DNA of 64,000 bases from positions 559,331 through 623,330 of the forward strand of contig CAWHHI010000006.1 in assembly GCA_963829055.1 (NCBI GenBank). The letters are read 5' to 3'. The notes below the pieces were generated by a model. It did no database searches, was not told the DNA's origin, and was given only the letters and a program-made list of their open reading frames with translations. Position 1 is the first letter of the stretch. Every line of letters begins with the position of its first letter. Of the stretch, positions 81 to 32,544 are shown one piece after another. Both the position numbers and the translations under genes were made by a program. Source of the DNA: an uncultured Gemmatimonadaceae bacterium. Lineage in GTDB: Bacteria > Gemmatimonadota > Gemmatimonadetes > Gemmatimonadales > Gemmatimonadaceae.

Positions 81-446
81 ATGCGCGCCGTCCGCGGCGC
101 TGTAACGGTGGACGCCGACACGCCGGCCGCGATTGACGCCGCCGTGCGTGAGCTGCTCGAACAGCTCACGGACGCCAATGCGATCGACTCGCGGGACATC
201 GTGAGCGCCATCTTCTCCGCGACGCCCGACCTCCGCAGTCGCAACCCGGCCACGTCGGCTCGCACGTTAGGCTGGACGGACGTGCCGCTGATGGGAGTGG
301 CCGAGTTCGAGACTGACGGTATGCTCGCGCGGTGCGTGCGCGTGATGCTGCACGTGAGCGTCGCCGACGGGCGGCGGCTGCAGGCCGTATATCTCGGCGG
401 TGCTGCGTGCCTTCGTCCGGATCTGGCGTCGTTCGCAGAGGCCTGA
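81..446 (+). CDS. aroH: Chorismate mutase, AroH type
   Basis: 121 aa with RAVRGAVTV, SAIFSATPDL...PATSAR...VPLM and CVRVMLH...VYLGGAACLRPDL, the AroH signature. Confidence 0.9.
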   Translation: MRAVRGAVTVDADTPAAIDAAVRELLEQLTDANAIDSRDIVSAIFSATPDLRSRNPATSARTLGWTDVPLMGVAEFETDGMLARCVRVMLHVSVADGRRLQAVYLGGAACLRPDLASFAEA

Positions 447-484
447 GGAAGGAGGCCATAGGAAGGAGGTTGTCATCCTGAGCG
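443..484 (+). repeat. Stop-anchored GGAAGGAGGCC repeat followed by a left end (TTGTCATCCTGAGCG) of the palindromic element family
   Basis: CTGAGGAAGGAGGCCATAGGAAGGAGG; near-identical copies at 19448-19508 and 29299-29324 on the minus strand. Confidence 0.7.
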
Positions 485-762
485 CCGGAAGCGACAGCGA
501 GGGACCTTCTCGAACGTTCTTGTGGCCGGGCTGGCTACAATGACGTTGACGGAATCGGGCCTCTCAGACGAAGGGTGCTACGGATGCCGCGTCAGCGACG
601 GATAGCCTCCGAGCCGGGACGAGGCACTGTCACGGGCTGTGAAGGGGAACCGCGTCGGATGCATTGTCATCCGCTGTCGCGACGCTTCTCGGACAGCGGA
701 GTCAATCCGCTCGATCCGACAGATCCGTTCTCTCCGTCAGTCCTGAGCCGTCCGACGGCGTC

Positions 763-2065
763 CTATGGACGCAGGTCGATGACCCGCACTGCAGTCCGCG
801 TTGGCGGTCGCGTTTGTGGAGCGAGCCGGCCGCTACGATCGTCGAGGCGCCCGTACTGGCTGTTCGCAATGTAGTAGAAGCGAGTTCCGACGAGGACTCC
901 CGTCGTCGGCTGCTGCACGACCGGTAGCCCGCGTTCGATCACCGCGCCCGACGTGATCCGGCTCCCGTCGGCAGACACACCGTACCTGACGACGCGCGCG
1001 AGCGTCGGGATTCCCTGGACGGCGATGAGGCCGTCGCCGTACCAGTACAACCCATCGACGGACGCGGTGCTCACCGAGTCGGGCGACGGCACAAGCGTGA
1101 GACTCTCGCGTCGTCAGGTCCAGCCGCGCGATGCCTTCGAGGAACGCCACGTAGAGCGCGCGTTCGTCGGGGTGCACCGTGATGCCGTTCGCACTCGTAT
1201 ACCGATCGAGCGGAGGCTGCACGAACAGCTCGAGCGTGTCGTCAGGAGAGCGCAGGCGGTAGATCGAGCCCTTTTCGGTGTCCGTGAGATAGAGACTTCC
1301 GTCGCGCATGACAACGAAGTCGTTCAGCAGGTGCCCGGGCCTGCCACCGTCCGGCGTCCACGACTTGATGATCCTGCCTGTCGCGAGCTCGGCGAGAAAC
1401 AGGCGCGTTATGCTCGGCGGCTCGGTGGAATCGCGATGCGTCGAGTCCGGCGCCCACGTCGCGAACCATAGGCGCCCGCGCGCGGCGTCGATGTGAATAC
1501 CGACGACGCGGAGCATGTTCGGCGCGTGAGCGATGTACGGCGTGACGGCGCCGTTAGGCGCGACGGCTGAAACGACACGCCTGGCGAGACTCCCGACGAG
1601 AAATCGGCCGCGCGTGCTGTCGAACGCGAGCGCCTCCGGGACGAAGTCAGGGTCCGCGATCTCGAACGCGACTTTCCCGTCGAGAATCGGCAGCCGGTTG
1701 GAGAGCAGCCGATTCCGCGCGCTCGCGTAGCCAGGACGCGCTCGCAACGGGGCGAACACGGAGTCCGCGTTAGGGTCGCGCGTGTCGCCCATGCGCCCGA
1801 GTCGCGCGAGCGCGGCGATAGCGGAATCTGGGGCGCCGGAGCGTGCGAAGGCGCGCGCCTGGGCGTAGACGACGCCCGGATGACTCGGCGCACGCGCCGC
1901 GACTTCCCGCACGTGCGCCGCGTACCCGGCGAAGTCGCCAGCCGCGGCTGCACGTTCTGCGAGCTGCGAGTGGCAGAAGACATCACACGCTGGCTGCTGT
2001 GCGCTGCCAGTCGCGGAAGCGAACGCGAGCGACGTGCAAGCAAGAAGCAGCCGCCGCGCCATCAC
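763..2065 (-). CDS. Secreted SMP-30/gluconolactonase-like beta-propeller protein with N-terminal TPR-like region (frameshift near 1100)
   Basis: Signal peptide; propeller motifs PEALAFD, LLNDFVV, ANGITV, VDGLYW, QQPTTG; ORFs 833-2065 and 763-1092 join. Confidence 0.7.
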
Positions 2066-2529
2066 GTCAGGTCGGCGTTCCCGTCGATGAACTTCGAGGT
2101 TGAAGCGGAACGCCGTGATGCGCCACGTTCGTTGGGTGAGCTCACGAGCGTGAAGTCGTACGTTCCGACGAACGTCCTCGTGTTCCGCCCTGACGGGGTA
2201 CGACGGTAGTGCATTGCGATACCGTAACAGGACGCGTCCGCCTCACGGCCACGTACGGTGATCTGAAAGTTTCCCGCCTGATGATGCAGGAACTCGATCG
2301 GGGCGAGGCCCTCCTTCCAGCCGGCAATGATCTGCTCGGCTGACACCGTCGCGGGCTCGCCGCCCGCGACCAATGTCATGTCGAAGTCCACGGTGTCCGT
2401 CAGACAGGTGCGTATGCCGTCCCAGTCGCGAGTATCCGTATACTCGAACAACCGGACGATGCAGTCGGTGATCTGCTGCCGGGCGACGAGATCGGCGAGG
2501 CCGCTCGGTACGCGCTGCACGTCGATCAT
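2062..2529 (-). CDS. NTF2/SnoaL-like family protein
   Basis: LFEYTDTRDWD...FDMT...LHHQAGNFQITV..EADASCY...FVGTYDF. Confidence 0.75.
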   Translation of the reverse strand: MIDVQRVPSGLADLVARQQITDCIVRLFEYTDTRDWDGIRTCLTDTVDFDMTLVAGGEPATVSAEQIIAGWKEGLAPIEFLHHQAGNFQITVRGREADASCYGIAMHYRRTPSGRNTRTFVGTYDFTLVSSPNERGASRRSASTSKFIDGNADLT

Positions 2530-2533
2530 CGCG

Positions 2534-2650
2534 TCAGACCGAAGCCAGGGCTTCGTGCTCGACGCGGGTGCCGAGTGCCGCCTGGAACGGGACCATGACT
2601 TCGTAATCCTCGACGAAGTCGCCGACGAGCATCAGAATCTTCTTCGACAT
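2534..2650 (-). pseudogene. DJ-1/PfpI family gene with a large internal deletion (38 aa remain)
   Basis: MSKKILMLVGDFVEDYEVMVPFQA (PfpI N-terminus) joined directly to a C-terminal-like tail ALGTRVEHEALASV; GGAGG RBS upstream. Confidence 0.7.
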
Positions 2651-2733
2651 CCGATACCTCCGCGAAACGGGGCTGCTGAGTTGAGTGACGCACCTGGATT
2701 TGCCGTGACGATCGCGCGGAGACAAGTCCTCCG

Positions 2734-2886
2734 TGTCATTCCGAGCAGGTTGTCATTCCGAGCGAGCGGCAGCGAGTCGAGGAATCGCGATTGTCCTCAT
2801 AGAGGGGCCGCTCTGCCCGTATGATCGCGATTCCTCATGCGCCCAGAGGGCACCCGCGGCCTGCGGCCTCCGCTCGGAATGACAAC
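2734..2886. repeat. Palindromic REP/MITE-like element, copy 1
   Basis: 16-bp terminal inverted repeat GTTGTCATTCCGAGCG (2749) / CGCTCGGAATGACAAC (2871-2886); internal hairpin GAGGAATCGCGAT...ATCGCGATTCCTC; extra left end at 2734; homologous copy at 27056. Confidence 0.85.
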
Positions 2887-2887
2887 G

Positions 2888-4131
2888 CTATCTTCGACGA
2901 GCAGTTATCAGAACCTGAATCTCGTCAGGGCGTGGATTGAGGAAGTCCAGCCGTATCCGCCCATCCGGCAACGTGCTGACCGTCGTGGTGAATCGAGCTG
3001 TTCGTCAGCACCCAGCCCGCCGGCAGCACGACGGCATTCGCCGGACGACCGAAGCCGCGATCCCACACGAGCTCGTCGCCCGACAGCTTGTAGCGTGCCG
3101 TGTCCGTGTACGTCTCGAACATTCGAAGCGAATCGACTCGCCCGCCTTCACCGCCGGGAAGCGAAACACCACGACTTCGGTCGTCGGCGTGACATTCTCG
3201 CACGTCGAGCTTCGCCTTCGTGATCGCGTCGCCGACCAGCACCTCATGTGGGAGCATCTCACCCGTGTCGAGGTTTCGCGCCGACGGCTTCGACACCGTG
3301 CTGCCCGCGCGCACGACATTGAGATACGTGCTCACGCCGGGCCGCGTCTCCGTGTAGTCGTGATACAGATCGAACGCGTGCGTCTCCGGCTGCTGCAGGA
3401 AGTACACGATCTCGCGGTTCTGATACGCGCGTTCGACCAGTCGTGCGGCATCAACACTCGACTTCGCGGGGCCGAGCTTCGGCGCCTTTCGCGCGCGGAG
3501 CACCAGCGGTGCTTCGGCCGGCGTGACGTTCCAGAACGTGACCTTGATCCGGCCGTCCGCTTCCTGAAGGATCTGCGACGGATAGTTGCAGGCCACGAGC
3601 TCGTAGCCGTTAGGCAGCACGACCGCGTTGCGCTTGATGCCGAGCGGTCGGTTGAAGACGATGTCGCTGCCGTCGAGGAAGTAGCTCTTCGCGTCCTCGT
3701 ACGTCTTGTCGATCAGGACGCGGGCCTCGCCGCCGTCGGCGGGAACCGGGCGCGCGAGCGCGACGCGGATGTAGTCCTGCGTCGAGTCGGCGCCGCGAAC
3801 GCCGCCGGCGCGTGCGACAGTGCCATTCACCACATCGAATCGGAGGGGCGCTCCGGTCGCACGATCGGTCACGCGCTCGTCGCTCGCGACGCTTCCTCGG
3901 CGAATGGGATTGAAGTAGTAGCGGGCGCCCGCCGTCGTCGCGGAGACCTCGTAGATGATCCGGAACTTGGCCGACCCTGGCGCCAGCAGCTCGTATCGGG
4001 TGTAGGCGTCGGCCTCGGTCTGCCTGGGCGGCTCGGCCGCAGTGCCTGGTGGCGCCGGTGTCTGCGCGCCGAGAGACCCGGATGCGATGATCAGAGCGAC
4101 AAGCGAAGCGCGCAGTGCGCAGTCGAGGCAT
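2888..4131 (-). CDS. Secreted hypothetical protein with an internal two-fold domain duplication (several frameshifts)
   Basis: NAVVLPNGYELV...DGRIKVTFWN matches NAVVLPAGWVLT...DGRIRLDFLN; the corrected frame ends ITARRR* at 2888. Confidence 0.65.
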
Positions 4132-4136
4132 GAGAG

Positions 4137-4682
4137 TCAGGGGCCGAGCGCTCCGGTGCAGCGCTGGAGGCACTTCACGGTGAAGAGGCCGGGGTCCGTC
4201 GTGAACCCGATGCCGCTGAGCTTCCGCGTGCCCGACATCGCGACGAAGGGGCTGTCGCTCGTCAGACGATTCGTGGACACGTCGTAGCGGACGGCGACGC
4301 CGTCGATACGACGGCGCGTCGTGTCTGACGTGATCGCCACGCGGCCATGTGCGTCGACCACCGCGCGGTTCACATGATAGGTGCCGCTCGGCGCGGTAAG
4401 ACTGCTCAGCGGCCTGCCTAACGTCGTCGTGAACTGCGCGCGGAAGCCACGGAACTCGAAGCGCGTCAAGGCGTCGAACGACATGACCGTGTCGCCGCCG
4501 ATCTCGCCGCGACGCAGGCCGTTCGAGGCGAGCACCGAGCGCGCACCGAACATCACCTGTTCGGCGGAGTCGCGCGCCGTGCCGGTGTTCGGAGCGGCCG
4601 AGCGCTGTGGCGAGTTGCACGCCCAGGCCAGGAAAACAACGCTGATTCCGAGGACGAGCCTCGTAACGCGCACGATGCTCAT
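4137..4682 (-). CDS. LptC-like lipoprotein (LPS export periplasmic protein-like)
   Basis: Lipobox-like AWAC; beta-jellyroll-like sequence ending RYDVSTNRLTSDSPF...LSGIGFTTDPGL. Confidence 0.55.
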   Translation of the reverse strand: MSIVRVTRLVLGISVVFLAWACNSPQRSAAPNTGTARDSAEQVMFGARSVLASNGLRRGEIGGDTVMSFDALTRFEFRGFRAQFTTTLGRPLSSLTAPSGTYHVNRAVVDAHGRVAITSDTTRRRIDGVAVRYDVSTNRLTSDSPFVAMSGTRKLSGIGFTTDPGLFTVKCLQRCTGALGP

Positions 4683-5207
4683 CGGTTCGACCCGCGGTTA
4701 CGACAGCGTTCCACCCTGGATCCTCGCGAACGGCGGGTCAATGTCCGGATATGTGAACTGCGCGACAGGATGGACAAGATGGGCAGGATGGGCGCGCCTG
4801 GATAGCGGGCGTGGGTGAGTCAAGATCGGGATCGACGTGGGACGTGCCGAGCGGTCCGACTGGGCGTGCGCGCGATTGCGGCCAGCGTCGGCGAGCTCCG
4901 TCACACGGCAGCGTCTGCTTCAAGCTTCTGGACGACGCGACGTTCTTCGCGGCGAGCTCGCTCGTCGACGACGTGGGTCGTCGCTGCACCGCGGTCGTTC
5001 AACATCGGCTTCCTGCGTCCGATGCTGCGTGCCGGGCACGGTGACCGCTCGCGGCACGTCGCATGCCGGCCACTCGCTGTCTGCTACCGACAGCGGCCGC
5101 GTGCTACGTGGAGCTGCATGTCGCACGCAGCCCATGCTGCATGTCGAGCCGAGCGGGTGGCAGCGCGCAGCGAGCCGCCTGGCGATACGCAAGCAGCAAG
5201 CTGCAGT

Positions 5208-5858
5208 TCAAGCAGCATGCTGCAGTTGATCCATGGTCTCCTGCACAATCTCGATCTCGTCGCCGCTGACGGTGTGTCCCATGCCCGGGTAGAGCTTTCG
5301 CGTCACCGCTGCACCGAGGCGGCGGAAGACCGTCTCGCTCTCGAGCACGCGCTCGCCGGGATGTGCGGGTCGACGTCGCTGCAGCCGAGGAACACCGGCG
5401 TGCCGTCGAGCGACGTCGTGACGTCGTCCCACGTCGTTCCTGGCGGGCCGATCAGACCCGCCGCTCAGCGCCATGACGCCGCCGTAGCGTCGCGGGTGGC
5501 GGATCGAGAATTCGGACGTTAGGCATGCGCCCTGGGAAAACCCGAGCAGCATGATCTGCTGCGGCGGGAATCCCGCGCTCGATGAGATCGCTCACGAGCG
5601 ACTCGATCACGAACAGGCCCGACGAGATGCCCGGCTCGTTCTGCTCGCGTGGCGCCATGAAGCTGAGCGGATACCACGTCCCGCCAGCGGCTGCCGGCGC
5701 CAGGTACACGAAGTCGGGCCGATCGAGGACCGCCGAACGAGCTCGAGGATGTTCGCCGGGGCCGGCGTTCCGGCCGTGAATCATGATCATGGCGGCACGT
5801 GCGGTCGTCGAGCGGCGGCGCCGGCGCGCAGGATCGGCTGACCGGCGTGTGGCTGCAT
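5208..5858 (-). CDS. Phospholipase/carboxylesterase, alpha/beta hydrolase (frameshifted)
   Basis: IMIHGRNA, GTWYPLSFMAP, nucleophile motif GFSQGAC, YPGMGHTV. Confidence 0.85.
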
Positions 5859-5876
5859 TGGTCGAGAATCTGCCGG

Positions 5877-6824
5877 TCAGTAGCGAACGTTAGGCAGCTG
5901 CGCTTCGATCTCGGTCCGGTGCGGCTCTTCCCACGGCGGCAGCTTGAGCGCCGCGTCCGAGCTCGGCCACCGGCTCGTCGACCGGGAAGCCGGGCCGCAT
6001 CGTCGCGATCTCGAACAACACGCCGCCCGGCTCGCGGAAGTAGATCGACTTGAAAGTACTGCCGGTCGCGCACGGCGGTGACCTGCGCGCGCCCGACCAG
6101 CTCCTCGCGCAGTCTTCAGCTGCTCGTCCTCGCTGCCGATGGCCATCGCGACGTGGTGCACGGTGCCGAGCCCGTTCTTCGCCCACGCCGCATCGCCGGC
6201 ATGGACAATGTCCATCACCTTGCCTGGGCCGTCGCCGTTGACGGCGACGCGAATGCGGCCCTCCATCTCGTTCACGACCTCGAAGCCGAGCATGTCGCGC
6301 ATGAACTCCACGGTCCGGCGCGGCTCGCGGACCTCGAGCGACACGCTGTGGAGGCCCGCGCACGGCAGACGTCGCGTCTACACCGCCGGCGGTCCACGGG
6401 GACACGCGTATCCTGCGTCGTTCGCCACGAGCTCGATGACGAGGCCCGATGGGTCGGTGATGACGATCGACTCTTCGCCGAATCGCGGCGGGCGCGTCGG
6501 TCACCGTGTAGCCGCGCTCGCGAAGGCGCGTCTTCCAGGCGTCGAGTGAACCGGCGGGAACGGAGAACGACGTGACGGTGATCTGTCCCGCGCCCTTGAT
6601 GCCCGAGCGGCACGCCTCGGCCCTTGTAGGGAAAGGTCGTCCAGATCGTTCCGGGATGGCCGACCTCGTCGCCGTAGTAGAAGTGGTAGACGAAGTGGTT
6701 GTCGAAGTTGACCGTCTTCTTCACGAGACGCATGCCGAGCGCGTCGACGCTGAAGTCGAGGTCGTCCTGGGCGTCCGTCGACCGTCGCCGTGACGTGATG
6801 CAGCCCGAGGATCGGAGAGCTCAT
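5877..6824 (-). CDS. Ring-cleaving dioxygenase, VOC family, MhqO-like (frameshifted)
   Basis: [62 protein letters not shown]. Confidence 0.9.
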
Positions 6825-6944
6825 GGGGTGATGTAAAGCCTCAGCGGCGCGTCCAGCAAGGTTCCCGCTGACACCGCAAGTAACATTGCGTGGTATGTTC
6901 GACCACGGCATTTCAGTCGACACCGCCTCTGCACGGGAACTCAT

Positions 6945-7475
6945 ATGACGACGTGCTGACTCGGCCCGACCGAACGGAAGCTGCCGAGTACTACTACACG
7001 TACATCGATCAGGTGCCGCCGGATGCCGACATGCTCCGCATGCTCGAAGACGCAGCTTCCCGAGACGGTGAGCTGCTCGAGGGGATCTCGGACGAACAAG
7101 TCGCTGCACCGGTACGCACCGGACAAGTGGAGCATTCGCGAGGTGGTGAGCCACATCAACGATACAGAGCGAGTGTTCGTGTTCCGCGCCTGTGGTTCGC
7201 CCGCGGCCTCGAGCCGGCGATTGCCGAGCTTCGATCAGGACGTCGCGACTGGCGGCGCGTACGCGGACGAGCGACCCTGGCGTCAACACATCGATGAGTT
7301 CCGCGCGGTTCGCGCGGCGTCGCTGCGCGTTCTTCAAGCATCTGCCCGACGACGCGTGGACGCGTCGTGGCGATTGCGAGCGGCAATCCGTTCACGGTGC
7401 GCGCGCTCGCGTACATCACGGCCGGGCACGTCAGCGCACCACATGCGGATCCTGCTCAGGGAGCGGTATCTGTAC
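6945..7475 (+). CDS. DinB family protein (frameshifted)
   Basis: YYYTYIDQV, RYAPDKWSIREVVSHINDTERVF, LPSFDQD, GH..HH..ILRERYL pieced across frames. Confidence 0.8.
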
Positions 7476-7494
7476 GCGCGCGCCGTCGCCCGCC

Positions 7495-9039
7495 GTGATA
7501 CGGCCGATCGACCACCTGTATCGCGGCGCGCGACCGCGTCGCCTAACGCGGTCGCGATCGCCGGGCCGGGTGAGCCGCTCACGTACGCCGAGTCTGGTAG
7601 CGTCGGTCGAGGCGCTCGCGGCCGCGCTCCAGTCGATCGATCCGATGGATCGGGAGCCGCGTCGGCATCTGCGCCCGGAACACGGTCGAGCACCTGTTCG
7701 CGTTGCTCGCGACGTACGCGGCCGGCAAGGTGTGGGTGCCGCTCAACCCGACGAACAGCGCGCGCCGACCTCGATCGAATGATCGCCGCGACGCGTCCGA
7801 CGCTGATCATCGCCGACGAATCGAGCGCTCGATCGCTTCACGCCGACCGACGCGCCAGTCGATCCTGGCGAAGACGAGCGTTCGCCGGGCGAGGAGTCGA
7901 CCGAGCGTTCGGCGGACTCATCGCCGACTGGCACGGCCGACGACCGACCGTGGTCGATCGCGCGGACGACGGCGACGCGCAGATCATCAAGTTCAGCGGC
8001 GGAAGCACCGGCGCGCCGAAGCCGGTCGTGCAGTCGGTCCGCTGCGTGAACGCGCAGGTCGACGGAATCCTCGGCGTGCTTCGAGCTCGACGCGGGCGAC
8101 GTCAATCTCATCGCCGCGCCGCTCACGCACGGGGCGTCGTGCTTCGTGCTGCCGATCCTCGCCGTGGGTGGACCGGCACGTGCTGGTCGAGGATCCGAAG
8201 CCGCCTCGCGTGCTCGACGCTATCGAGTCGCACGGCGTGACGACAATGTACGCGCCGCCGACGCTCATCTACGGTATGCTCGACGACGCCTCCGTCCACG
8301 GGCGGAACTACACGCAGCCTGCGTCACGTGATCTACTCGGCCGCGCCCATGCGACCGGAGCAGATCCGCGAGGCGCAGCGCGTGTTCGGGCCGGTGATCG
8401 AGACGGCCTACGGTCAGGTGGAAGCGCCGCAGATCGTGACGGCCATGCGCGCGACGGAGCTCGCGCGCGACGAGAATCTGGCGTCGATCGGGCGGCCGTC
8501 CCCGGTGGCGGAGGTGGCGATCATGAGCACCGACGGGCGAGCTGCTGCCTAACGGCGAGATCGGGCGAGATCGTGGTGCGTGGCCCACTCGTCATGAACG
8601 GCTATCTCGATCGGCCCGACATGACGGCCGAGACGATCGTGGACGGCTGGCTGCATACCGGCGACCTCGGGCTGATCGACGATCGCGGCTACGTGTTCAT
8701 TCGCGGCCGACTGCGCGAGGTGATCAACAGCGGTGGGTTCAAGGTCTTTCCGGGCGACGTCGAGGCTGCGCTCGCGAAGCATCCCGCGGTCGCCGAGTGC
8801 AGCGTGTTCGGCGTGCGCTGACGAGAAGTGGGGCGAGGCGGTGCACGCCGCCGTGCAGGCTGGTGCCCGGCGTGCGGTGAGCGCTGCGGAGCTGATCGCG
8901 TTCGTGAAGGCGGAGCTCGGGTCGGTGAAGGCGCCGAAGGCGATTCACTTCGTGACGCGAGCTTCCGAGGAATGCGGCGGGGAAGGTGAGTCGCGCTGCG
9001 GTACGTCGGCTGATCGAGGACGCACGCCCTAGCGCCTGA
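7495..9039 (+). CDS. AMP-binding acyl-CoA synthetase (frameshifted)
   Basis: KFSGGSTGAPK P-loop, YGQVE, DGWLHTGDLG..D..GY..IRGR, FKVFPGDVE, DEKWGEAV. Confidence 0.85.
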
Positions 9040-9344
9040 CTAGCTGCGGCACTGCAGGCTGCGCGCTGGGAACGATCTGCCGACGGCTGCATGCTGCGGC
9101 CGCACGCTGCCCGCTGCTGCTATTAGCGCCCGGCGACCTCCGCGCTGCCGCTCGCTGACGGTCTGCCTCGAACTCGCCAGTCACGCAGCGACTGACGCAG
9201 CGATGGCGGCTCGTAGCCGTTCGCCAGGCGGGACTGAAACCTGATGACCGACGACCGAGAACTCACGACGTGCTACCGGTGAGACCGGTCGCGATGCCGG
9301 CCTCTAAACCAGCCTCGAACCTTTTCGCCAATTCGCCTGTCTCA

Positions 9345-9363
9345 CCTTCAGACAATCTGAAGG
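9345..9363. promoter_or_regulatory. Palindromic operator candidate for PadR, overlapping the RBS
   Basis: Perfect 8-3-8 inverted repeat CCTTCAGA-CAA-TCTGAAGG just upstream of the padR-like start. Confidence 0.6.
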
Positions 9364-9375
9364 AGAGCCGGAACG

Positions 9376-22083: not shown

Positions 22084-22100
22084 CCGCGGATCTGATGTCC

Positions 22101-23722: not shown

Positions 23723-23728
23723 CGTCGC

Positions 23729-25558: not shown

Positions 25559-25802
25559 GATGCGCGAGCGACGTGAGTCTGCGACGTGGGTCCGGCGGAG
25601 CGACGTTGAAGGCGACGACTATCGCAACGGGGATCACCCGAGACTTGAACGATCCTGCGGTAGATGTCGTCGGGCAGCCGATCCGTCAACGGCCTCTCGG
25701 CGCCCGCTAGCGGCGACCCCTTCGTCCCAGCGATTCGTCAGGCTCGTTCCGCATCTGGACGATTGCGCGTATCGCGAGCGCGCAGGGCAGCGCTTCGTAG
25801 GC

Positions 25803-25897
25803 TCTTCGTGCAGTACAACTCGACGACGGACCGCCTCGATTTCAACGCGCGTCTGCGCTACGCTTTCACCGAAGGATCTTCTGCGAGATCATCGTAA
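25803..25897 (+). pseudogene. Possible remnant of an outer-membrane beta-barrel (DUF5916-like) C-terminus
   Basis: LFVQYNSTTDRLDFNARLRYAFTEGS, with no credible upstream coding sequence. Confidence 0.35.
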
Positions 25898-25964
25898 CTA
25901 GTCTGGCCACGACCCGTCCACGGAAGATCCCTCGTCGCCTTCGGCTCCTCGGGATGACACATCG

Positions 25965-27055
25965 ATGAAAACACGGATCATCCTCGGTGTCTGCGCCGTG
26001 TGGCTGCTGCTCGGCGCACTGTGGGGTGCGCAGACCGCGCTCGGGTCGAGTGTGATGGGTGGGCAACCCGTTCCGCTCGTGGCGGCCATCAAGAGCGCGC
26101 TGCAGCAGATTCTGCCGTGGGTGCCCGTCACGCTCGCGGTCATTGCGCTCACCGTGCGCTTCCCGCTCTCGCGCGACACGTGGCTGCGCTACGCGCCGAT
26201 GCATCTCGCCGCCGCGGCGCTGCTCGCGTTCGCCGCGAATGCGCTCGTCGTGCTCATGTACTGGGCGAGCGTCGGAAAGTTCGGTGGCCTCATCGAGCTC
26301 GCGCATCAGGGCGCGATCTGGGCGACGGTCCGCTTCCACATCGCGTTGCTCATCTACGCCTCCATCCTCGGCATCACGCAGGGCGTGCTCTCGTACCGCA
26401 GCATGAAGTCGCGCGAGCTGCAACTCGCGAGGGCGGAAGGACAGCTTGCCGAGGCGCGTCTCCAGGCGCTCAACGCGCAGATCCGGCCGCACTTCCTGTT
26501 CAACACGCTCCACACGATCGGCCAGCTCTGGCGCAGCGGCCGTAGCGACGACGCGGACGCCGTCCTCGATCATCTCGGCGCGCTCTTTCACAAGGTCTCG
26601 AGCTCCACGTCTCGCTTCGAAGTGCCGCTGGCCGAGGAGCTCGAGTTGGTGCGCGACTATCTGGCGATCGAGGAGGTGCGTTTCCGCGACCGCTTGCGAC
26701 CGACTGGTGGACGCGCCCGCTGACGCGCTGGACTGTCTCGTGCCGCCGCTCATCCTGCAGCCGCTCGTCGAGAACGCGGTGCGCCACGGCATTTCTGCCG
26801 TGTCCACCGCTGGCGTGCTGGAAGTGTCTGCATCGCGACAGGGATCGCGCCTGCGTCTCACGGTGCGCGATGACGGGCCCGGAATCTCGGTCGCGTCGAA
26901 GTCGCCGGGCACCGGCACGGGGCTCCGCAATACGCGGGAGCGCCTCGCGCAACTCTACGGCGAGCGTGGGCTCATGAGCATCGCGGACGCGCCGGGCGGC
27001 GGCACGATCGTGACGGTGGACATCCCCATCGCGCCTAACGGGAGCAGCGGCGAAC
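25965..27055 (+). CDS. LytS/YehU-type sensor histidine kinase (frameshift near 26700; 3' end runs into a repeat)
   Basis: TM N-terminus; LQALNAQIRPHFLFNTLH, VPLAEEL....YLAIEEVRF.DRL, LQPLVENAVRHG, DDGPG, GTGLRN. Confidence 0.9.
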
Positions 27056-27230
27056 GGTCATTCCGAGCGGAGCGCCCGATCGGGCCGCGCAGTCGAGGAA
27101 TCGCGATCGTCCCGATAGAGGGGCCCCTCTGCCCGGATGATCGCGATTCCTCGTGCGCCAGAGGGCACCCGCGCGCTTCCGGCGGCTCCGCTCGGAATGA
27201 CCGAGCTCGGCTTCCGCTCGGAATGACAAC
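27056..27230. repeat. Palindromic REP/MITE-like element, copy 2, with a duplicated right end
   Basis: GGTCATTCCGAGCGGAGC (27056) / GCTCCGCTCGGAATGACC (27185-27202); same internal GAGGAATCGCGAT hairpin as copy 1; second right end at 27214-27230. Confidence 0.85.
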
Positions 27231-28092
27231 GGATCCTGACGCCTCGGCGCGTCCATCCACCGTCGTGCGCGCCGTGGTGGTGGACGACGAGCCCACCTCG
27301 CGCGAGGTCGTCCGCACGCTGCTCACCGAGCATCCGACGGTACAGGTCGTGGGCGAAGCGACGAACGGCAAGGAGGCCGTTCTACTCGTCAGGCAGCTCC
27401 GGCCCGATCTGCTGTTCCTCGACATCCAGATGCCCGACCAGGACGGCTTCCGCGTGCTCGAGTCGCTCGGCGACGACGTCCCGCGCGGCATCGTGTTCGT
27501 GACCGCACACGACGAGCACGCGATCCGCGCGTTCGACGTTCACGCGCTGGACTACGTGCTCAAGCCGTTCGGCCGCCCGCGGTTCAAGGCGGCAGTCACG
27601 CGCGCGCTCGAGGGACTGCGCGCCATGGAGGCGCTCACGCTGCAACGTACGCTCGCGAGCATGGCCGCTGATCGTCACGCCGACTTGCGTCCCGCCGGCG
27701 AGCTCACGACCGCGGATTCGCCGCCTGACGACGATGGCAAGACGCGGGCGACACCGCCTCGGCGCATCGGTGTGCGGAACGGCTCGAAGATCACGGTCGT
27801 GGACGTGGACGCGATCGATTGGGTGGAGGCGTCAGGCGACTATGCGCGCATTCACGCCGGCAAGCACACGTACCTCGTGTCGCAACGCATGCACGCGCTC
27901 GAGCGCCTGCTCGAGGCACGCGAGTTCGTGCGCGTGCATCGGTCGCTCATTGTGAACGTGAAGCGCGTGCGCGAGCTGCACCGCGACGCCGACGGTGGCG
28001 GCACGCTCGTGCTCTCGGATGGCGTTAGGCTCCGCGTCGCGCGCGGACGCTGGGAGGCGATGGAGCGGGCGCTCGAGATGGAGGAGTTCTAG
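27223..28092 (+). CDS. LytTR family response regulator
   Basis: VVVDDE, FLDIQMP, FVTAHDEHAIRAF..ALDYVLKP; LytTR IDWVEA.GDY...FVRVHRS.IVN. Confidence 0.92.
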   Translation: MTTDPDASARPSTVVRAVVVDDEPTSREVVRTLLTEHPTVQVVGEATNGKEAVLLVRQLRPDLLFLDIQMPDQDGFRVLESLGDDVPRGIVFVTAHDEHAIRAFDVHALDYVLKPFGRPRFKAAVTRALEGLRAMEALTLQRTLASMAADRHADLRPAGELTTADSPPDDDGKTRATPPRRIGVRNGSKITVVDVDAIDWVEASGDYARIHAGKHTYLVSQRMHALERLLEAREFVRVHRSLIVNVKRVRELHRDADGGGTLVLSDGVRLRVARGRWEAMERALEMEEF

Positions 28093-28312
28093 CTTGGCCG
28101 GCGGTCAGGCAGCGGGTGGTTATGCCTGGCGATGTGCGCCGTTAGGCGCGCCGACGCGATGTCGCGGCCACAGACGGGCATTGCACGCAGCACGGCGCCT
28201 TGTGCAGCACGGCGAGCGGGGCCAGGTGACACGGGCAGTCGCACGCGTCACCGGGAGGTGGCGTGGGAACGAACTTCAGGAAGCTCCGATCTCGGTTCGG
28301 CATTCCGCGCAT
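28089..28312 (-). CDS. Small Cys/His-rich, zinc-finger-like protein (absent from the ORF track; probable 1-nt deletion)
   Basis: MPNRDRSFLKFVPTPPPGDACDCPCHLAPLAVLHKAPCCVQCP, then xCGRDIASARLTAHIARHNH in the shifted frame. Confidence 0.55.
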
Positions 28313-28421
28313 GCTTCAGATCTACGCCCGGGAGCCGCTGGGCGGAAGCGGCAAACGAACTGATAGTTGGCGACGGTCATCCGCTCGGGTTCCCCGACCA
28401 TCTTCCCAGCACGGACTGACA

Positions 28422-29216
28422 ATGCCTCAGGTCTCGGCTCTCTATATCTATCCGGTCAAGTCGTGCGCCGGTATCGCGGTCGCGAGTGCGACGCTCGACA
28501 CAAGAGGATTCGTCGGTGATCGCCGCTTCATGATCGTGGACGACGCCGGCTCGTTTCTCACCCAGCGTGAGCTCCCGAGACTCGCGCTGATCTCGCCGCG
28601 CACGGACGATGACGTGCTCTCCCTCGACGCACCCGGCATGGCCCCGATCGAGACGCCCGTCCGCCGCGGTCGTGGCGATGGGACGGTGACCATCTGGGAC
28701 GACACGTGCTCCGCGATTGACCAGGGCGACGAGGTCAGCGCGTGGCTCGGTCGGTATCTCGGCACACGGTGTCGACTCGTAAGGCAGGCCGATGACGATG
28801 TGCGCCGCATCGATCCGACGTACGCCACGAGCGCCGCTGACGAAGTGAGCTTTGCCGACGCCTATCCGTTGCTGTTGATCAGCGAAGCGTCGCTCGCCGA
28901 CCTGAACTCACGGCTGGAAGTGCCGCTTCCAATGGATCGCTTCCGGCCCAACGTCGTGTTGAGTGGCACCGAGCCGTACGCCGAAGATGCGTGGCGGTCG
29001 ATCGAGATCGGTGCCGTGCGGGCGCAAGTGGTCAAGCCCTGCGTCCGGTGCGTGACGACCACGGTCGATCAGCGCACAGCGGAAGCGGGCAAGGAGCCGC
29101 TCCGCACACTCGCCACCTACCGCAAGGGTCCACGAGGCGTGATGTTCGGCCAGAACGTCATCCACGGTCATCCGGGCACCATCAACGTCGGGGACCGCGT
29201 GCGCGTCAGAGAGTAG
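28422..29216 (+). CDS. MOSC domain protein (MOSC_N + MOSC, mARC/YcbX-like)
   Basis: LYIYPVKSC, DRRFM, FADAYPLL, RFRPNVV, AEDAW, PCVRC. Confidence 0.92.
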   Translation: MPQVSALYIYPVKSCAGIAVASATLDTRGFVGDRRFMIVDDAGSFLTQRELPRLALISPRTDDDVLSLDAPGMAPIETPVRRGRGDGTVTIWDDTCSAIDQGDEVSAWLGRYLGTRCRLVRQADDDVRRIDPTYATSAADEVSFADAYPLLLISEASLADLNSRLEVPLPMDRFRPNVVLSGTEPYAEDAWRSIEIGAVRAQVVKPCVRCVTTTVDQRTAEAGKEPLRTLATYRKGPRGVMFGQNVIHGHPGTINVGDRVRVRE

Positions 29217-29324
29217 GAAGGAGGCGGACGGCGGATGGCGGATGGCGGAGAAAAAGCGTGTCACCCCGAGCGGCAGCGGCTGACACCGCTCTTACCTGCT
29301 CCTTCCTACGGCCTCCTTCCTCAG
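29214..29324. repeat. Convergent GGAAGGAGG/GGCGGAT repeat tracts flanking a partial palindromic-element end
   Basis: TAGGAAGGAGGCGGACGGCGGATGGCGGATGGCGG; TGTCACCCCGAGCG at 29259; CTCCTTCCTACGGCCTCCTTCCTCAG at 29299-29324. Confidence 0.65.
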
Positions 29325-30049
29325 GCCTCGTTGAGAAACCCCCTCGCCCAGTCCGGCCGACCGTTTCGCTCCGCCTGCGCCGCTACCGCCGCCCAGTCGT
29401 ACTCGAGCGCGATCAGGTCGACGCTCCACCTCGCAGCGCGCCGAGTCGCGATCGCATAACGCGCGTGTGGGGAGCCCGCCTCGTTGATGAGCCGGTCCGC
29501 ATTGTCCGCGTAGCGCGGACAGCCGACGCTGCCCGGATTGAGCACCAGCCGTCCCGCGCGGTCCGACGCCAGGTGCTGGTGATGACTGTGACCGCAGAGC
29601 ACCAAGTTCGCCTGCACGTCGCCGAGCCGGGTGCCTAACGCATCAGCCTTCACCAGCGCCAGGCGACCGTCGACCTTCTCCTCGAGCAGGTAGTCCGCGT
29701 CGCTCGTCGGCGTCCCGTGTACGGCGAGCACTCCGTCGTCGATCGCGAGCGTCGCGGGAAGCGCGCCGAGCGCCGCACGCTGGGCGTCACTCAACGCGTC
29801 ACACGAGAACGCAATGCTCGGTGACGGTGGTCCCGAGTCTGGTTGCGCGATCCAACGATCGTGATTGCCGCGGACCGTAGGCATGCTGACGGTTTCGAGT
29901 AGCTCGAACGTCTCGCGCGGCCACAGGGGACTGGTCACGCAGTCCCCGAGGTTCACCATTGCGTCCACGCCCCGAGCACGGATGTCGGCGAGCACGATCT
30001 CGAGCGCACGGAGGTTCCCATGCACGTCCGAGATCACCGCGAGTCTCAT
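29321..30049 (-). CDS. Metallophosphoesterase (YfcE-like)
   Basis: SDVHGN, LGD, RGNHD, HG, GHSH, NPGSVG. Confidence 0.92.
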   Translation of the reverse strand: MRLAVISDVHGNLRALEIVLADIRARGVDAMVNLGDCVTSPLWPRETFELLETVSMPTVRGNHDRWIAQPDSGPPSPSIAFSCDALSDAQRAALGALPATLAIDDGVLAVHGTPTSDADYLLEEKVDGRLALVKADALGTRLGDVQANLVLCGHSHHQHLASDRAGRLVLNPGSVGCPRYADNADRLINEAGSPHARYAIATRRAARWSVDLIALEYDWAAVAAQAERNGRPDWARGFLNEA

Positions 30050-30064
30050 CGACCAGCCATCGCG

Positions 30065-30718
30065 TCAGGCTCGAGCGGCTGGTGCGTGGACCCGCGCGTC
30101 GCGGCTCAGCATCCAGTTCTGGAGAAGGCTGACCAGCGAGCCCGCCCCCATCGAGAGCGCCACCGCGCTCGACGCCGACCAGAGGAAGAACGTCGTGACG
30201 AGCACGGTCGCGACGATCATTGCGGTTGGTGGGCTGGCTTGGCCGGGGGCCGTTGATGTCACGGCGACTCCCAGTGCGGTCGCGGCGACGACGCCGAGGA
30301 CGAGAAGGGCGTCCGGCCGCGCGAGATCAGGCACCCAGAGAAAGCGAACCTTGGATCCCAGGCCGCGACGCACCGCGGCGAACAGTCCGCTCAGCAATGG
30401 GAATTGAACCGCGAGACCCGCCAGTCCCGAAGGGGTCAGGAGCTTGATGCCATTTGCCGCATAGAGTGCCTGCGTCTCCCGCATGAGCGCTCGAGGGTCG
30501 TTCGCGAAGCGGCGTTGCAGCGCCTCGACCTGCGGGCGAAGCGCGGCGATGCTGGCCTGTTGCTGTCGAGCGCGTCGCGCCATCCGCAGCGTCAGCGGCA
30601 GCAGCGCAAGCCGCAGCCCGGCCGAGACGAGAAGAACTCCGCCACCGAGACTCCCTCCGCAGAGGTGAGCGGCGCTGAAGATCGAGGCGCGAAGTAGCTC
30701 GACGAAGCTGTCCCACAT
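30065..30718 (-). CDS. yidC: Short YidC/Oxa1 family membrane insertase (no periplasmic domain)
   Basis: RLALLPL, coiled coil LRPQVEALQRRF...ETQALY..NGI, QFPLL.GLF, FLWVPDL.RPD, SLLQNW. Confidence 0.75.
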   Translation of the reverse strand: MWDSFVELLRASIFSAAHLCGGSLGGGVLLVSAGLRLALLPLTLRMARRARQQQASIAALRPQVEALQRRFANDPRALMRETQALYAANGIKLLTPSGLAGLAVQFPLLSGLFAAVRRGLGSKVRFLWVPDLARPDALLVLGVVAATALGVAVTSTAPGQASPPTAMIVATVLVTTFFLWSASSAVALSMGAGSLVSLLQNWMLSRDARVHAPAARA

Positions 30719-30985
30719 GAAGCCCTCGCAGGAAAACGGTTCCCACCATACGGCGGCACTTCCCAGGATGCTTCACTGGAGATGAACCTGCTGGGCGCTG
30801 ACCTGCCAGGTGACCGGTTCGGGTCGTGGATGGGCTCGGTCGGCGTCGGACTGGTCGGCGAGCGGGTGGGAGCCGGCGTCTGGCGTGTGAGGGAGAGGCA
30901 CAACACAGATAGTCGAAGGAAGCCCGACCGTCTTACAGCCGCCGCTCGCTATGGATTCGGTGCTCGCGACCCGTGAGCCGCGTCG

Positions 30986-31147
30986 TTAGGCGCCGATGTT
31001 CTCTGGCGGATGCGACGGCCGTACACATTCCCGACACCGGTCCCAATCATACTCACCACGAACGCGCTGAACGTCCCGATCGGCGCGCCCAGCGCCCATC
31101 GCGTAGCCCCCGATGGTGGCGCCTACGAATCCGAGCAGCTTGGTCAT
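30986..31147 (-). CDS. Small glycine-rich two-TM membrane protein, about 53 aa (frameshifted, absent from the ORF track)
   Basis: MTKLLGFVGATIGGYA-WALGAPIGTFSAFVVSMIGTGVG-YGRRI-NIGA* read across indels. Confidence 0.55.
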   Translation of the reverse strand: MTKLLGFVGATIGGYAMGAGRADRDVQRVRGEYDWDRCRECVRPSHPPENIGA

Positions 31148-31260
31148 AGCGAGGAAGTGTCCTGGTTGAGCGATGCGTCCCGGGAGAGGACGATTACGGC
31201 CGGCACCGGCTACGTCCGATCCCGCGCGATGTGAGGGGCGTCACCCGTTGCTCGTGTGTG

Positions 31261-31419
31261 TTCGTCCAATCACAGAAGATGGAAGCCGTCGGGCGCCTTG
31301 CGGGCGGAATCGCGCACGACTTCAACAACAAGAAGGCGGATCCGAACCAGCTCGAGCAGGTGTTGGTGAATCTCGTCGTCAACGCGTGCGACGCGATGCT
31401 AGCGCCTGGCCGAGCCTAA
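31261..31419 (+). pseudogene. Hybrid histidine kinase remnant (H-box fused to N-box)
   Basis: [21 protein letters not shown] directly followed by [22 protein letters not shown], then a stop. Confidence 0.7.
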
Positions 31420-31805
31420 CGACTCGCAGTCACGCTCGCACTGGTCCTGCGTTCGAGGCCAGCGCGCGTTCGCGAAACCAGAAGAACAACGGCAGCGTTC
31501 CGCCGATCCCGAACAGCAGCGTGATGACGATGAAGCGCCACGCGCCGGCCAGCCCGATGCGTCGCGATTCGTGGCACCATCGACACGCAGCCGGCGAGTG
31601 CCGCTGCGAAGCGCATCGAGCCGAACGCCTGGCACCGGTTCGTGTCGCGAACAGTTCCGCGGTCTGTGCGCGCCGGATCCGTCCAGAAGAGGATGTTGCC
31701 CGTTCTCACGGACTCCATGATCATCGGAATTCCTGGCGCGAGAAAGCCGACAACGGCCAGAATGAGATAGACCGGGGCGATTGAGCTGCTTTGGGTTGCG
31801 GGCAT
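31416..31805 (-). CDS. DUF2834-like membrane protein (frameshifted)
   Basis: [13 protein letters not shown]-terminal [18 protein letters not shown] in the shifted frame. Confidence 0.55.
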
Positions 31806-31855
31806 GGTGAGCGTGCGTTGGTGGTGATGTGCGATCTGTTAGGCGAGTGTGTCGG

Positions 31856-32346
31856 TCACGGAAATGGCGAGCGGACGACTGCAGCCCGCACCCGCGCATC
31901 GAGCGCGACGAAGACCTCCGAGCGGATGAGCCAGTGTCCGTCTCGCTTGATCCATTGCGCTCCGTAGCGCCCGCGGATGAGCAGGTGCCCAGTGCGTGGA
32001 TCTCGCCCGGTCCAGGTGCCTGACGATGCGTGAGCGGCCAGCGATTGTTGCTCACATTTACGCGGTCGGGATCGCGTCGGTAGAGCGTGGCCGAGTCGGC
32101 GCCTAGCACACGCCTGATACGCGTCGCGCCCCTGGATCACACGCCCGAGCGCCGACCGGATGACGACGTCGTCGGTCCAGATGACGCGACACGATCGAGA
32201 TCGTGTTGGGCGATGGCGGTGTTCTGTGCGGTTCGGGTCGTGCGCACGGCGGCAGCCTCGCGCGACCGCCCACCAGTGGTCTGCACGAGCGCGAGGCTGC
32301 CCACAGCAACGGCGGCCACAATCGATAGACGAGCCGTAGCGTTCAT
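31856..32346 (-). CDS. Secreted NTF2/DUF4440 family protein (frameshifted)
   Basis: Signal peptide; QNTAIAQHDLDRV, WTDDVV, YRRDPDRV.VS, GTWTG, GRYGAQWIKRDGHWLIRSEVFVAL. Confidence 0.65.
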
Positions 32347-32544
32347 TCGAGTCCTGGTCAGTGCGATGGATCCACCATTCAGTCACGCCAAATGTGCCGG
32401 GCGGCTACGGCTACCCCACGCTACCGCTCGCCACGCAGCTCGGCAACTACGTCCGAGGTACACTCAGCCGCACGGAGCCGTTAGGCAGGCAACCTTGGCG
32501 ACCGCTGGAGCTGATCGCAACCCTCCGTCCGATTGTGCTGTCCA

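What the first reader, a model, noticed from the sequence alone, without database searches (positions are those of the whole stretch)
266..32486. Heptamer GTTAGGC/GCCTAAC strongly over-represented, left fragment only
Seen: 27 exact copies counted by eye at 266, 1553, 3609, 4416, 5518, 5889, 7541, 8547, 10911, 12227, 14467, 15724, 16041, 18156, 18824, 19846, 23359, 23717, 24179, 27033, 28024, 28141, 29633, 30985, 31414, 31838 and 32480. Most extend to CGTTAGGC. Last-base variants lie at 1769, 12605, 14377, 19318 and 24461. Copies occur on both strands, mostly inside genes, where they force codons rare at this GC (TTA, CTA, CCT) or supply TAA stops (23720, 30986, 31417). A rough mononucleotide estimate at ~68% GC gives only 3-4 copies. 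I saw none after 32,550. Inference: a selected, non-palindromic genome-wide signal comparable to Chi, DNA uptake sequences, HIP1 or a nucleoid/methylation site. The lack of strand polarity argues against a Chi/KOPS role.
Basis: partly seen in the sequence, partly recalled or inferred. Interest (0 to 1): 0.7.

Follow-up and report, generated by a model that had tools for sequence, protein, structure and literature searches.

The report
Cross-phylum DNA tag in soil bacteria
This soil bacterium has the eight-letter DNA word CGTTAGGC written about 5,000 times through its genes, spaced out and conserved against its codon habits, as do some relatives, a group of soil Verrucomicrobia and a phage, so an unidentified protein likely reads it as a tag, most likely when DNA is taken up from outside.

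Summary
Confirmed: 27 exact copies at the stated places (shuffles: mean 1.5), none after 32,486. The word is genome-wide: 5,630 GTTAGGC, 5,004 CGTTAGGC (49x order-2 expectation), on both strands, surviving codon-aware tests. The empty right half is foreign DNA (Ca. Limnocylindrales-like) joined at ~32,556, most likely an assembly chimera. Sites repel each other: where amino acids allow the word, it is written 6% of the time within 50 bp of another copy and about 50% at 500-1,000 bp. About half of the sites are kept between congeners at near-saturated silent divergence, and losses are offset by nearby gains. It is non-polar, not among the methylated motifs published for a cultured carrier, and no C5 methylase, RecC or ComP was found. 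The same octamer fills 49 of 81 Chthoniobacterales relatives (dialect TCGTTAGGC), and two phage strains keep 26 of 27 copies. Best reading (0.5): a DNA-uptake-type tag; main rival (0.27): an intracellular 'self' licence that phages mimic. This scan noted the word before, on this genome and others; I found no paper.

The parts
266..272 (+). GTTAGGC copy, read ACG TTA GGC (Thr-Leu-Gly) in gene 81-446
1553..1559 (+). copy, CCT AAC (Pro-Asn) in minus-strand gene 833-1912
3609..3615 (+). copy, CCT AAC in minus-strand gene 2925-3872
4416..4422 (-). copy, TTA GGC in minus-strand gene 4137-4682
5518..5524 (+). copy (gene call here is weak)
5889..5895 (+). copy outside my gene calls; not part of an attC hairpin
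7541..7547 (-). copy outside my gene calls
8547..8553 (-). copy supplying the TAA stop of call 8328-8552
10911..10917 (+). copy outside my gene calls
12227..12233 (+). TGTTAGGC variant copy, TTA GGC in call 12018-12530
14467..14473 (+). copy, CCT AAC in minus-strand gene 13861-14574
15724..15730 (+). copy outside my gene calls
16041..16047 (-). copy, TTA GGC in minus-strand gene 15987-16640
18156..18162 (+). TGTTAGGC variant copy outside my gene calls
18824..18830 (-). copy outside my gene calls
19846..19852 (-). copy, TTA GGC in minus-strand gene 19429-19992
23359..23365 (-). copy, CCT AAC in gene 22595-23722
23717..23723 (-). copy supplying the TAA stop of gene 22595-23722
24179..24185 (+). 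copy, CCT AAC in minus-strand DUF6745 gene 23729-25558
27033..27039 (-). copy, CCT AAC in gene 26707-28092
28024..28030 (+). copy, GTT AGG (Val-Arg) in gene 26707-28092
28141..28147 (+). copy outside my gene calls
29633..29639 (-). copy, TTA GGC in minus-strand gene 29321-30049
30985..30991 (+). copy outside my gene calls (claimed stop not confirmed)
31414..31420 (-). copy supplying the TAA of a short, weak call 31279-31419
31838..31844 (+). TGTTAGGC variant copy outside my gene calls
32480..32486 (+). last copy, 70 bases before the join
1769..1775 (.). GTTAGG core with other last base
12605..12611 (.). GTTAGG core with other last base
14377..14383 (.). GTTAGG core with other last base
19318..19324 (.). 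GTTAGG core with other last base
24461..24467 (.). GTTAGG core with other last base
1..32556 (.). host (Gemmatimonadaceae-like) DNA carrying the word at about 1 core per kb, GC about 0.66
32557..64000 (.). foreign block without the word, GC about 0.73, GC3 mostly 0.88-0.97, running to the contig end; GreA-fusion gene 40176-41414 has its nearest named relative in Ca. Limnocylindrales (83%); most likely a chimeric join

Best explanation
The word (C)GTTAGG(C) is a dispersed DNA tag kept by selection or drive at about one copy per kilobase, and it is likely read on unmodified double-stranded DNA, in either orientation, by an unidentified sequence-specific protein that most likely acts when DNA is imported by natural transformation. 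Shown: abundance against codon preference, no strand polarity, saturation (a second copy within about 400 bp is rarely written), positional conservation with compensating gains, lineage dialects, absence from foreign blocks, intact ComEC/DprA/type IV pilus genes. Inferred: fragments carrying one copy are taken up and recombined more often, so point mutations that create the word spread and those that destroy it are replaced; a second copy on the same short fragment adds little, which would set the 0.4-0.5 kb exclusion length. Inferred: the same reader, or readers with the same specificity, operate in scattered Gemmatimonadales and in a Chthoniobacterales clade. The receptor was not found.
For: Abundance: 5,630 GTTAGGC, 5,004 CGTTAGGC vs 102 expected at order 2. 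Codon-aware: GTT-AGG 14.9x, TTA-GGC 12.0x, CCT-AAC 6.3x, CTA-ACG 6.0x given the dipeptide; Pro-AAC-G uses CCT 1,086 of 1,624 times, CCT before AAG 3 times. Pro-Asn-X tripeptides O/E 1.66-2.05 vs 1.05-1.33 reversed, as reported for USS/DUS (PMC2817400, passages). Saturation: pair correlation 0.16 below 50 bp rising to about 1 by 400-600 bp, all four orientations; variants TGTTAGGC, CGTTATGC, CGTTAGGT/G are also excluded near perfect sites, control words are not; P(written | amino acids allow) 22/377 at <50 bp, 497/984 at 500-700 bp. An even spread is the expected result of uptake drive (PMC7811141, passage). Conservation in 345 gene pairs with six congeners: 119 shared, 108 G000-only, 89 other-only, at fourfold identity about 0.50 and A/T retention 0.16-0.25; word codon pairs kept 0.53-0.80 vs 0.00-0.41 for controls. 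Lost sites have a gain within 500 bp in 41 of 109 cases vs 0.19 at random and 13 of 119 for shared sites. Density rises with gene GC3, 0.61 to 1.12 per kb; 0 copies in 2 of 2 16S genes; near-absent from three foreign-looking blocks. Dialects: CGTTAGG(C>T>G) here, strict GTTAGGC in Gemmatirosa plasmids (111 of 113), TCGTTAGGC in G327 (T in 95%). G327 also has tandem copies and close inverted pairs, one a perfect hairpin, as DUS has in terminators (PMC2397512, passages). ComEC 54 of 54 and 52 of 54, DprA 74 of 75; type IV pilus operon in G000.
Against: Uptake was not measured. ComEC, DprA and pilin classes are equally present in word-poor genomes, ComEC does not group by word status on its tree, no word-specific pilin was seen and ComP_DUS is under its cut-off in 5 of 5. 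A phage carries the word at 3.3-3.8 per kb, about four times this host, under purifying selection; uptake drive does not obviously predict that, and its host is unknown. A tag shared by two phyla is a poor species-level 'self' mark. G000 lacks the close inverted pairs typical of DUS/USS. The long exclusion zone is strong in G000 but weak or confined to <100-250 bp in G305, G327 and the phage. The word forces rare codons, whereas USS/DUS frames follow preferred codons (PMC2817400). G000's comEA-like frame is short (81 aa), probably an assembly frameshift but unproven.
Confidence: 0.5

Rival explanations
1. The word is an intracellular 'self' licence: a cytoplasmic surveillance or repair system would degrade, silence or fail to process DNA that has no copy within a few hundred bases, and phages of these hosts mimic it densely to escape.
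For: Two strains of a podovirus-like phage (L115, L620; 90.5% nucleotide identity) keep 26 of 27 copies, with 0 of 33 third-position differences inside words against 212 of 754 outside; 78 relatives at about 42% protein identity have 0-0.5 per kb. In phage record G324, 23 of 35 copies lie in the first 10.5 of 44.6 kb. Saturation and orientation independence fit a licence with a range. Patchy spread over the host tree is typical of mobile defence genes (general knowledge). AddAB-type nuclease hits are rarer in word-rich genomes of both phyla (5 of 28 vs 27 of 52; 5 of 28 vs 20 of 26).
Against: Native-looking host stretches of 9-16 kb have no copy, so a strict requirement is excluded. No unmethylated licence other than Chi is known to me. 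The AddAB trend is threshold-dependent: word-rich Verrucomicrobia have a divergent AddAB-like pair that scores weakly and has no homologue in G000. No phage was tied to a word-rich host.
Confidence: 0.27
2. The word is the binding site of a nucleoid-organising or topology protein, spaced for chromosome structure, as proposed for HIP1.
For: Under-dispersed, non-polar spacing; present on the megaplasmids of a named carrier at chromosome-like density (815 GTTAGG in 1.04 Mb). HIP1's quasi-periodic spacing led to this proposal (PMC13756078, introduction).
Against: No periodic peak, only a short-range hole. Density differs about tenfold among carriers and close relatives lack the word (G294 111 vs G241 4,172 and G298 4,454 in one genus), which is odd for an architectural need. 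Does not explain selection in a phage.
Confidence: 0.08
3. The word is a by-product of integron activity: the integrase would use or rewrite chromosomal GTT sites into attC-core copies.
For: CGTTAGGC and TGTTAGGC are the commonest attC ends in word-poor relatives; full-length IntI in 5 of 5 tested carriers and G000 has an integron.
Against: IntI is just as common in word-poor genomes (24 of 41 over cut-off) and its tree does not group carriers. G305's own attC cores are degenerate (GTTAGAC, GTTAGCC, GTTAGCT) and GTTAGAC is common in attC sites, yet CGTTAGAC has only 24 copies in G000. One-step neighbours are not selectively depleted. Window copies are not in attC hairpins. A by-product would not show compensating gains or purifying selection in a phage.
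Confidence: 0.07
4. The word is a methyltransferase site enriched by a methyl-directed repair ratchet or needed for strand discrimination (HIP1/Dam-like).
For: CCTAAC has the shape of non-palindromic m6A motifs (A in the fifth place; recalled, not tested). Even spacing is expected for repair entry sites.
Against: Gemmatirosa kalamazoonensis KBS708 carries the word (NZ_CP007130.1: 388+/427- vs control 33/47) but its SMRT methylome lists only RGATCY, ATGCAC and CCAGN7TCA (PMC3974934, whole text). No PF00145 hit in 5 of 5 carriers, one of them 100% complete. No ratchet signature; no lower silent divergence beyond 15 bp from shared sites.
Confidence: 0.05
5. The word is a Chi- or KOPS-type polar signal.
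For: Weak correlation of strand bias with GC skew (rho 0.36 over 68 windows). Phage mimicry of Chi is known (recalled; one search returned no paper).
Against: 52.1% on the G-rich strand, within the range of control words (49-56%), against 78.7% for GGGNAGGG. Opposite-orientation pairs are excluded as strongly as same-orientation pairs. No RecC in 5 of 5 carriers; no AddAB-sized PDDEXK_1 hit in the complete G305.
Confidence: 0.03

Closest known systems
DNA uptake sequences: DUS of Neisseriaceae (read by minor pilin ComP) and USS of Pasteurellaceae
   Same: Short non-palindromic word about once per kb on both strands; mostly in genes; conserved at orthologous places; tripeptide enrichment; scarce in foreign DNA and rRNA; lineage dialects; inverted pairs and clusters in G327; hosts have competence genes.
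   Different: Unrelated sequence, 7-9 bases; no ComP over cut-off; written through the rarest codons; same octamer in two phyla and patchy within a family and even a genus; strong mutual exclusion and few close pairs in G000; denser in a phage than in any host measured; identical to the attC core; uptake untested.
HIP1 (GCGATCGC) of cyanobacteria
   Same: Hyper-abundant octamer made by point substitution, conserved, evenly spread, polyphyletic; recently linked to transformation (PMC13756078).
   Different: Not palindromic; not among the methylated motifs of a cultured carrier; no C5 methylase in five carriers.
Integron attC core site (GTTRRRY) and inverse core (RYYYAAC)
   Same: Letter-for-letter the commonest attC ends in this phylum (CGTTAGGC, TGTTAGGC).
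   Different: Genomic copies are single, inside genes, without L boxes or hairpin; degeneracy differs from attC; IntI does not co-vary.
Chi (RecBCD/AddAB) and KOPS (FtsK)
   Same: Over-represented non-palindromic 7-8-mer; diminishing value of neighbours; phage enrichment.
   Different: No replichore polarity; no RecC; no AddAB-sized nuclease hit in a complete carrier.

Membership tests
DUS/USS uptake sequences | hyper-abundant short word, about 1 per kb, both strands, beyond codon-aware expectation | tested here: met
DUS/USS uptake sequences | conserved at orthologous positions above silent background | tested here: met
   119 shared of 227 G000 sites at fourfold identity about 0.5
DUS/USS uptake sequences | scarce in foreign DNA and rRNA, richer in core-like genes | tested here: met
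   core was approximated by GC3, and the rRNA count (0 in 2 genes) is small
DUS/USS uptake sequences | enrichment of encoded tripeptides | tested here: met
   Pro-Asn-X O/E 1.66-2.05 vs 1.05-1.33; weaker for Leu-Gly, Val-Arg, Leu-Thr frames
DUS/USS uptake sequences | close inverted pairs forming terminators | tested here: inconclusive
   depleted in G000, present in G327
DUS/USS uptake sequences | competence machinery present | tested here: met
   ComEC, DprA, type IV pilus; also in word-poor genomes
DUS/USS uptake sequences | cognate receptor (ComP) | tested here: not met
   PF16732 over cut-off in 0 of 5; no word-specific pilin
DUS/USS uptake sequences | sequence-specific DNA uptake | not testable with these tools
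   needs an uptake assay
HIP1 | palindrome | tested here: not met
   sequence
HIP1 | site of resident methyltransferases | tested here: not met
HIP1 | more even than random spacing | tested here: met
   (short-range hole, no period)
Chi / KOPS | replichore polarity | tested here: not met
   52.1% vs 78.7% control
Chi / KOPS | RecBCD or AddAB in carriers | tested here: not met
   RecC 0 of 5; PF12705 5 of 28, none in complete G305; a very divergent enzyme could be missed
attC site | core spelled GTTRRRY | tested here: met
attC site | paired R''/R' with L boxes in a 57-141 base hairpin | tested here: not met
   no window copy qualifies; 21 loose candidates genome-wide against 7,103 cores

The most novel reading that the evidence does not exclude
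A sequence-specific reader of the integron core word CGTTAGGC has spread between two of the commonest soil phyla. It imports or spares DNA that carries the word, including integron cassettes, which have it at their ends. This would be a shared, unmethylated, cross-phylum DNA password rather than a species self-tag.
Probability: 0.25. Interest if true: 0.93.

Novelty: new variant of a known kind. Interest (0 to 1): 0.78.

Why it matters
Proven sequence-specific uptake words are known from two families (Neisseriaceae, Pasteurellaceae), with HIP1 a likely third case. An independent word in abundant soil bacteria, identical across two phyla and selected in a phage, would extend that short list and make the old question of why uptake words exist (sex, food, repair or drive) testable outside pathogens. 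A cultured, harmless carrier with a closed genome exists (Gemmatirosa kalamazoonensis KBS708), so the decisive assay is simple. The saturation curve gives a physical range (about 0.4-0.5 kb) for the unknown reader. In practice the word also flags chimeric joins and foreign DNA in these genomes.

Tried and rejected
Codon or dipeptide artefact: rejected. Repeat element: rejected, flanks carry only codon periodicity. Biological boundary at 32.5 kb: rejected in favour of a chimeric join; laying four public contig sets on 26,000-39,000 gave near-identical pieces on both sides, and no listed piece bridged 32,490-33,370, but 3,849 pieces were not shown, so this is no evidence either way. Reader candidates that failed: C5 methylase, N6 motifs by regex (uninformative), ComEC, DprA, ComEA-like (the strong HHH_3 hits lie in 750-860 aa frames that I take for Tex, from recall), pilins, ComP, IntI, RecC, AddAB. 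Cross-phylum best-hit screen of about 0.8 of 3.2 Mb of G327 plus seven other loci against my G000 proteins showed no obvious transferred DNA-binding gene; coverage was too low to exclude one. GC at silent sites near the word, within genes: +0.010 at 12-50 bp, not clearly above controls (up to +0.007). First two attC finders were too strict (on relatives); a folding-based one worked. Phage host: not found by tblastn, spacer-like search or named phages. Most viral hits were chance pairs; one-strand bacterial hits are CRISPR-like repeats and the Acidobacteriota hit tested is an attC array. Maughan et al. 2010 was not held.

Full report
Observation. The 27 copies are at the stated coordinates, 16 on + and 11 on -; shuffles give mean 1.5, maximum 6. 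The window is G000 C6:559,331-623,330, the end of a contig of a 7.78 Mb, 20-contig, 86% complete genome.

Why only the left part. GC rises from about 0.66 to 0.73 and GC3 from about 0.82 to mostly 0.88-0.97; an order-3 likelihood ratio switches at 32,556. The GreA-fusion protein at 40176-41414 has its nearest named relative in Ca. Limnocylindrales at 83%. The block runs to the contig end, and two more word-free blocks of housekeeping genes sit near contig starts. I infer chimeric joins; a read-level check was inconclusive.

The word. Genome-wide there are 5,630 GTTAGGC (2,878/2,752), 7,103 GTTAGG and 5,004 CGTTAGGC, 49 times the order-2 expectation; flanks show only codon periodicity. With my own gene caller (7,661 calls, 74% coding, many frameshifts), the four open frames are among the six most enriched codon pairs given the dipeptide. 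After an xCG codon, Leu-Gly uses TTA in 1,378 of 3,691 cases, after xTG in 10%, otherwise in 3% or less. 192 of 536 TAA and 144 of 1,120 TAG stops overlap the word. Density is 0.89 per kb in called genes and 0.99 outside, and rises with GC3 from 0.61 to 1.12.

Spacing. Gaps under 50, 100 and 200 bp number 92, 122 and 334 against 319, 304 and 568 for a random process, in all four orientations. The pair correlation of CGTTAGGC is 0.16 below 50 bp and about 1 by 400-600 bp, with no period; six control words show no hole, and one (CGGATTG) is too noisy to judge. TGTTAGGC, CGTTATGC, CGTTAGGT and CGTTAGGG avoid perfect sites, whereas CGTCAGGC and CGTTCGGC do not, which defines the functional set. 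Where the amino acids allow the word, it is written in 22 of 377 places within 50 bp of another copy, 337 of 903 at 200-300 bp, 497 of 984 at 500-700 bp and 16 of 81 beyond 2.5 kb. A site-by-site mutation bias cannot do this; one copy serves a neighbourhood (inference). The hole is weaker elsewhere: 0.61 at 100-200 bp in G305 samples, 0.12-0.6 at 100-400 bp in three Gemmatirosa plasmid stretches, below 100 bp in the phage, and slight in G327.

Selection. In 345 gene pairs with six congeners (amino-acid identity 0.81-0.86, fourfold identity 0.50-0.54), 119 sites are shared, 108 are G000-only and 89 other-only. Word codon pairs are retained at 0.53-0.80; ten informative control pairs at 0.00-0.27 and one at 0.41. 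Lost sites have a gain within 500 bp in 41 of 109 cases, against 0.19 for random positions and 13 of 119 for shared sites. Across genera positions are mostly not shared while density persists.

Not polar, not methylated. The word is 52.1% on the G-rich strand; a KOPS-like control (recalled motif) is 78.7%. The named record NZ_CP007130.1 of Gemmatirosa kalamazoonensis KBS708 has 388/427 GTTAGG against 33/47 for the control, and that strain's SMRT methylome lists only RGATCY, ATGCAC and CCAGN7TCA (PMC3974934, whole text; raw data not seen; SMRT is weak for m5C, recalled). No C5 methylase was found in 5 of 5 carriers and no RecC in 5 of 5.

Distribution. Of 41 near relatives, 13 have more than 500 GTTAGGC: all 7 of the genus and 6 others. 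Of 301 genomes across the phylum, 14 have 400 or more CGTTAGG, 10 of 70 in the own family and 4 of 125 in a sister family; none of 103 outside the order exceeds 182. Carriers are scattered on a ComEC tree (35 rows, quick search) and on an eight-gene tree (39 rows, G019 and G036 dropped, deep nodes weak); G241/G298 (over 4,000 copies) are sister to G294 (111). G327's dialect is TCGTTAGGC. Udaeobacter; my homologue search gave only order- and class-level names.

Phages. Among 80 viral loci most were chance pairs, but L115 (endolysin, virion protein) has 29 cores in 7.8 kb, 15/14 by strand; L203 and L620 are strains of it. Seventy-eight relatives at about 42% identity have 0-0.5 per kb. L115 and L620 differ at 9.5% of bases, yet share 26 of 27 copies, with 0 of 33 third-position differences inside words against 212 of 754 outside. 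L133 (21 in 7.6 kb) and G323 (48 in 44 kb) are also rich. No host could be assigned. This is the main result that the uptake reading does not explain well.

attC. The commonest attC ends in word-poor relatives are CGTTAGGC and TGTTAGGC. But IntI is common in rich and poor genomes alike, does not cluster by status, and G305's own attC cores are degenerate while its genomic word is strict. The identity of spelling is real and unexplained.

Mechanism. Shown: a short unmodified word, read in either orientation, whose value saturates over a few hundred bases, kept at the cost of rare codons and some amino-acid choice, with dialects. Inferred: a sequence-specific protein reads it. I put uptake first (0.5) because the profile matches DUS/USS in abundance, conservation, tripeptide effect, scarcity in foreign DNA, dialects and, in G327, terminator-like pairs (PMC2397512, PMC7811141, PMC2817400, passages only), and the hosts have ComEC, DprA and type IV pili. 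An intracellular licence is second (0.27) because of the phage. No candidate reader passed.

Known or new. It works like an uptake sequence but is not a DUS or USS member: different word, no ComP, uptake untested. It is not HIP1, Chi, KOPS or attC. Searches of the held library for the word with Gemmatimonad, for uptake or HIP1 terms with the two phyla and for competence in them gave no paper describing it, judged from listings and abstract starts; subscription journals and supplements were not seen. PMC13756078 (part 1 of 6) and PMC12614218 (three passages) were read for context. This scan has noted the word many times on this genome, on other Gemmatimonadaceae and on Chthoniobacterales; those notes are not independent support. 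Measured here, and not seen in the short note listings: the saturation curve, compensating turnover, the methylome contrast, purifying selection in the phage and the chimeric boundary.

Verdict. Real, selected, undescribed in what I could search; new variant of a known kind; interest 0.78.

Noticed in passing
G000 C6:6,855-55,038 and C11:7,378-44,055: Two more word-free blocks of housekeeping genes (trp/aroC/FtsK-like; glyoxylate and sugar genes) near contig starts; likely further chimeric joins. Donors not identified by a tool.
   Followed up: partly
window 13,061-17,577: Nitrous-oxide reductase cluster; the 16672-17577 frame matches only the C-terminal half of Sec-dependent (clade II) NosZ (TIGR04246, 407 bits, under cut-off), so the gene looks split by a frameshift, as many genes in this assembly do.
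   Followed up: no
G000 genome-wide: A second repeat family dominates the 8-10-mer lists (TCGGAATGAC, GTCATCCCGA and relatives, hundreds of copies), REP-like; CTAG is the most avoided 4-mer (z -111).
   Followed up: no
L440, L436, L454, L432: CRISPR-like arrays (period 70-74) in Haliangium, a Nitrosopumilaceae MAG, Microcoleus and Baaleninema have repeats containing CCGTTAGGC.
   Followed up: no
G331 C1:131,669-188,373 (L464): Very long attC cassette array in an Acidobacteriota MAG: about 95 same-strand CGTTAGGC in 57 kb.
   Followed up: partly
G327 C2 (L550, L569-L583): Tandem runs of CGTTAGG (up to four) and close inverted pairs, one a perfect hairpin, in AT-richer, intergenic-looking DNA.
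   Followed up: partly
L603:1317-7575 (G327 C21) and L605: Divergent AddAB-like helicase-nuclease pair of word-rich Verrucomicrobia, 71-72% identical between G327 and G336, about 24% to others, B subunit unknown to NCBIfam.
   Followed up: partly
L112 / G324: Phage record with 23 of 35 copies in its first 10.5 kb of 44.6 kb (ATPase and HNH nuclease region).
   Followed up: no
G000 C15:9,162-16,049: AddAB-like pair in an accessory-looking region; the two congeners with the lowest word density (G003, G004) are among those that have such a pair.
   Followed up: no
L381 (G305 C4, 21 kb replicon): The small replicon carries 20 GTTAGG in 20 kb, as dense as the chromosome.
   Followed up: no
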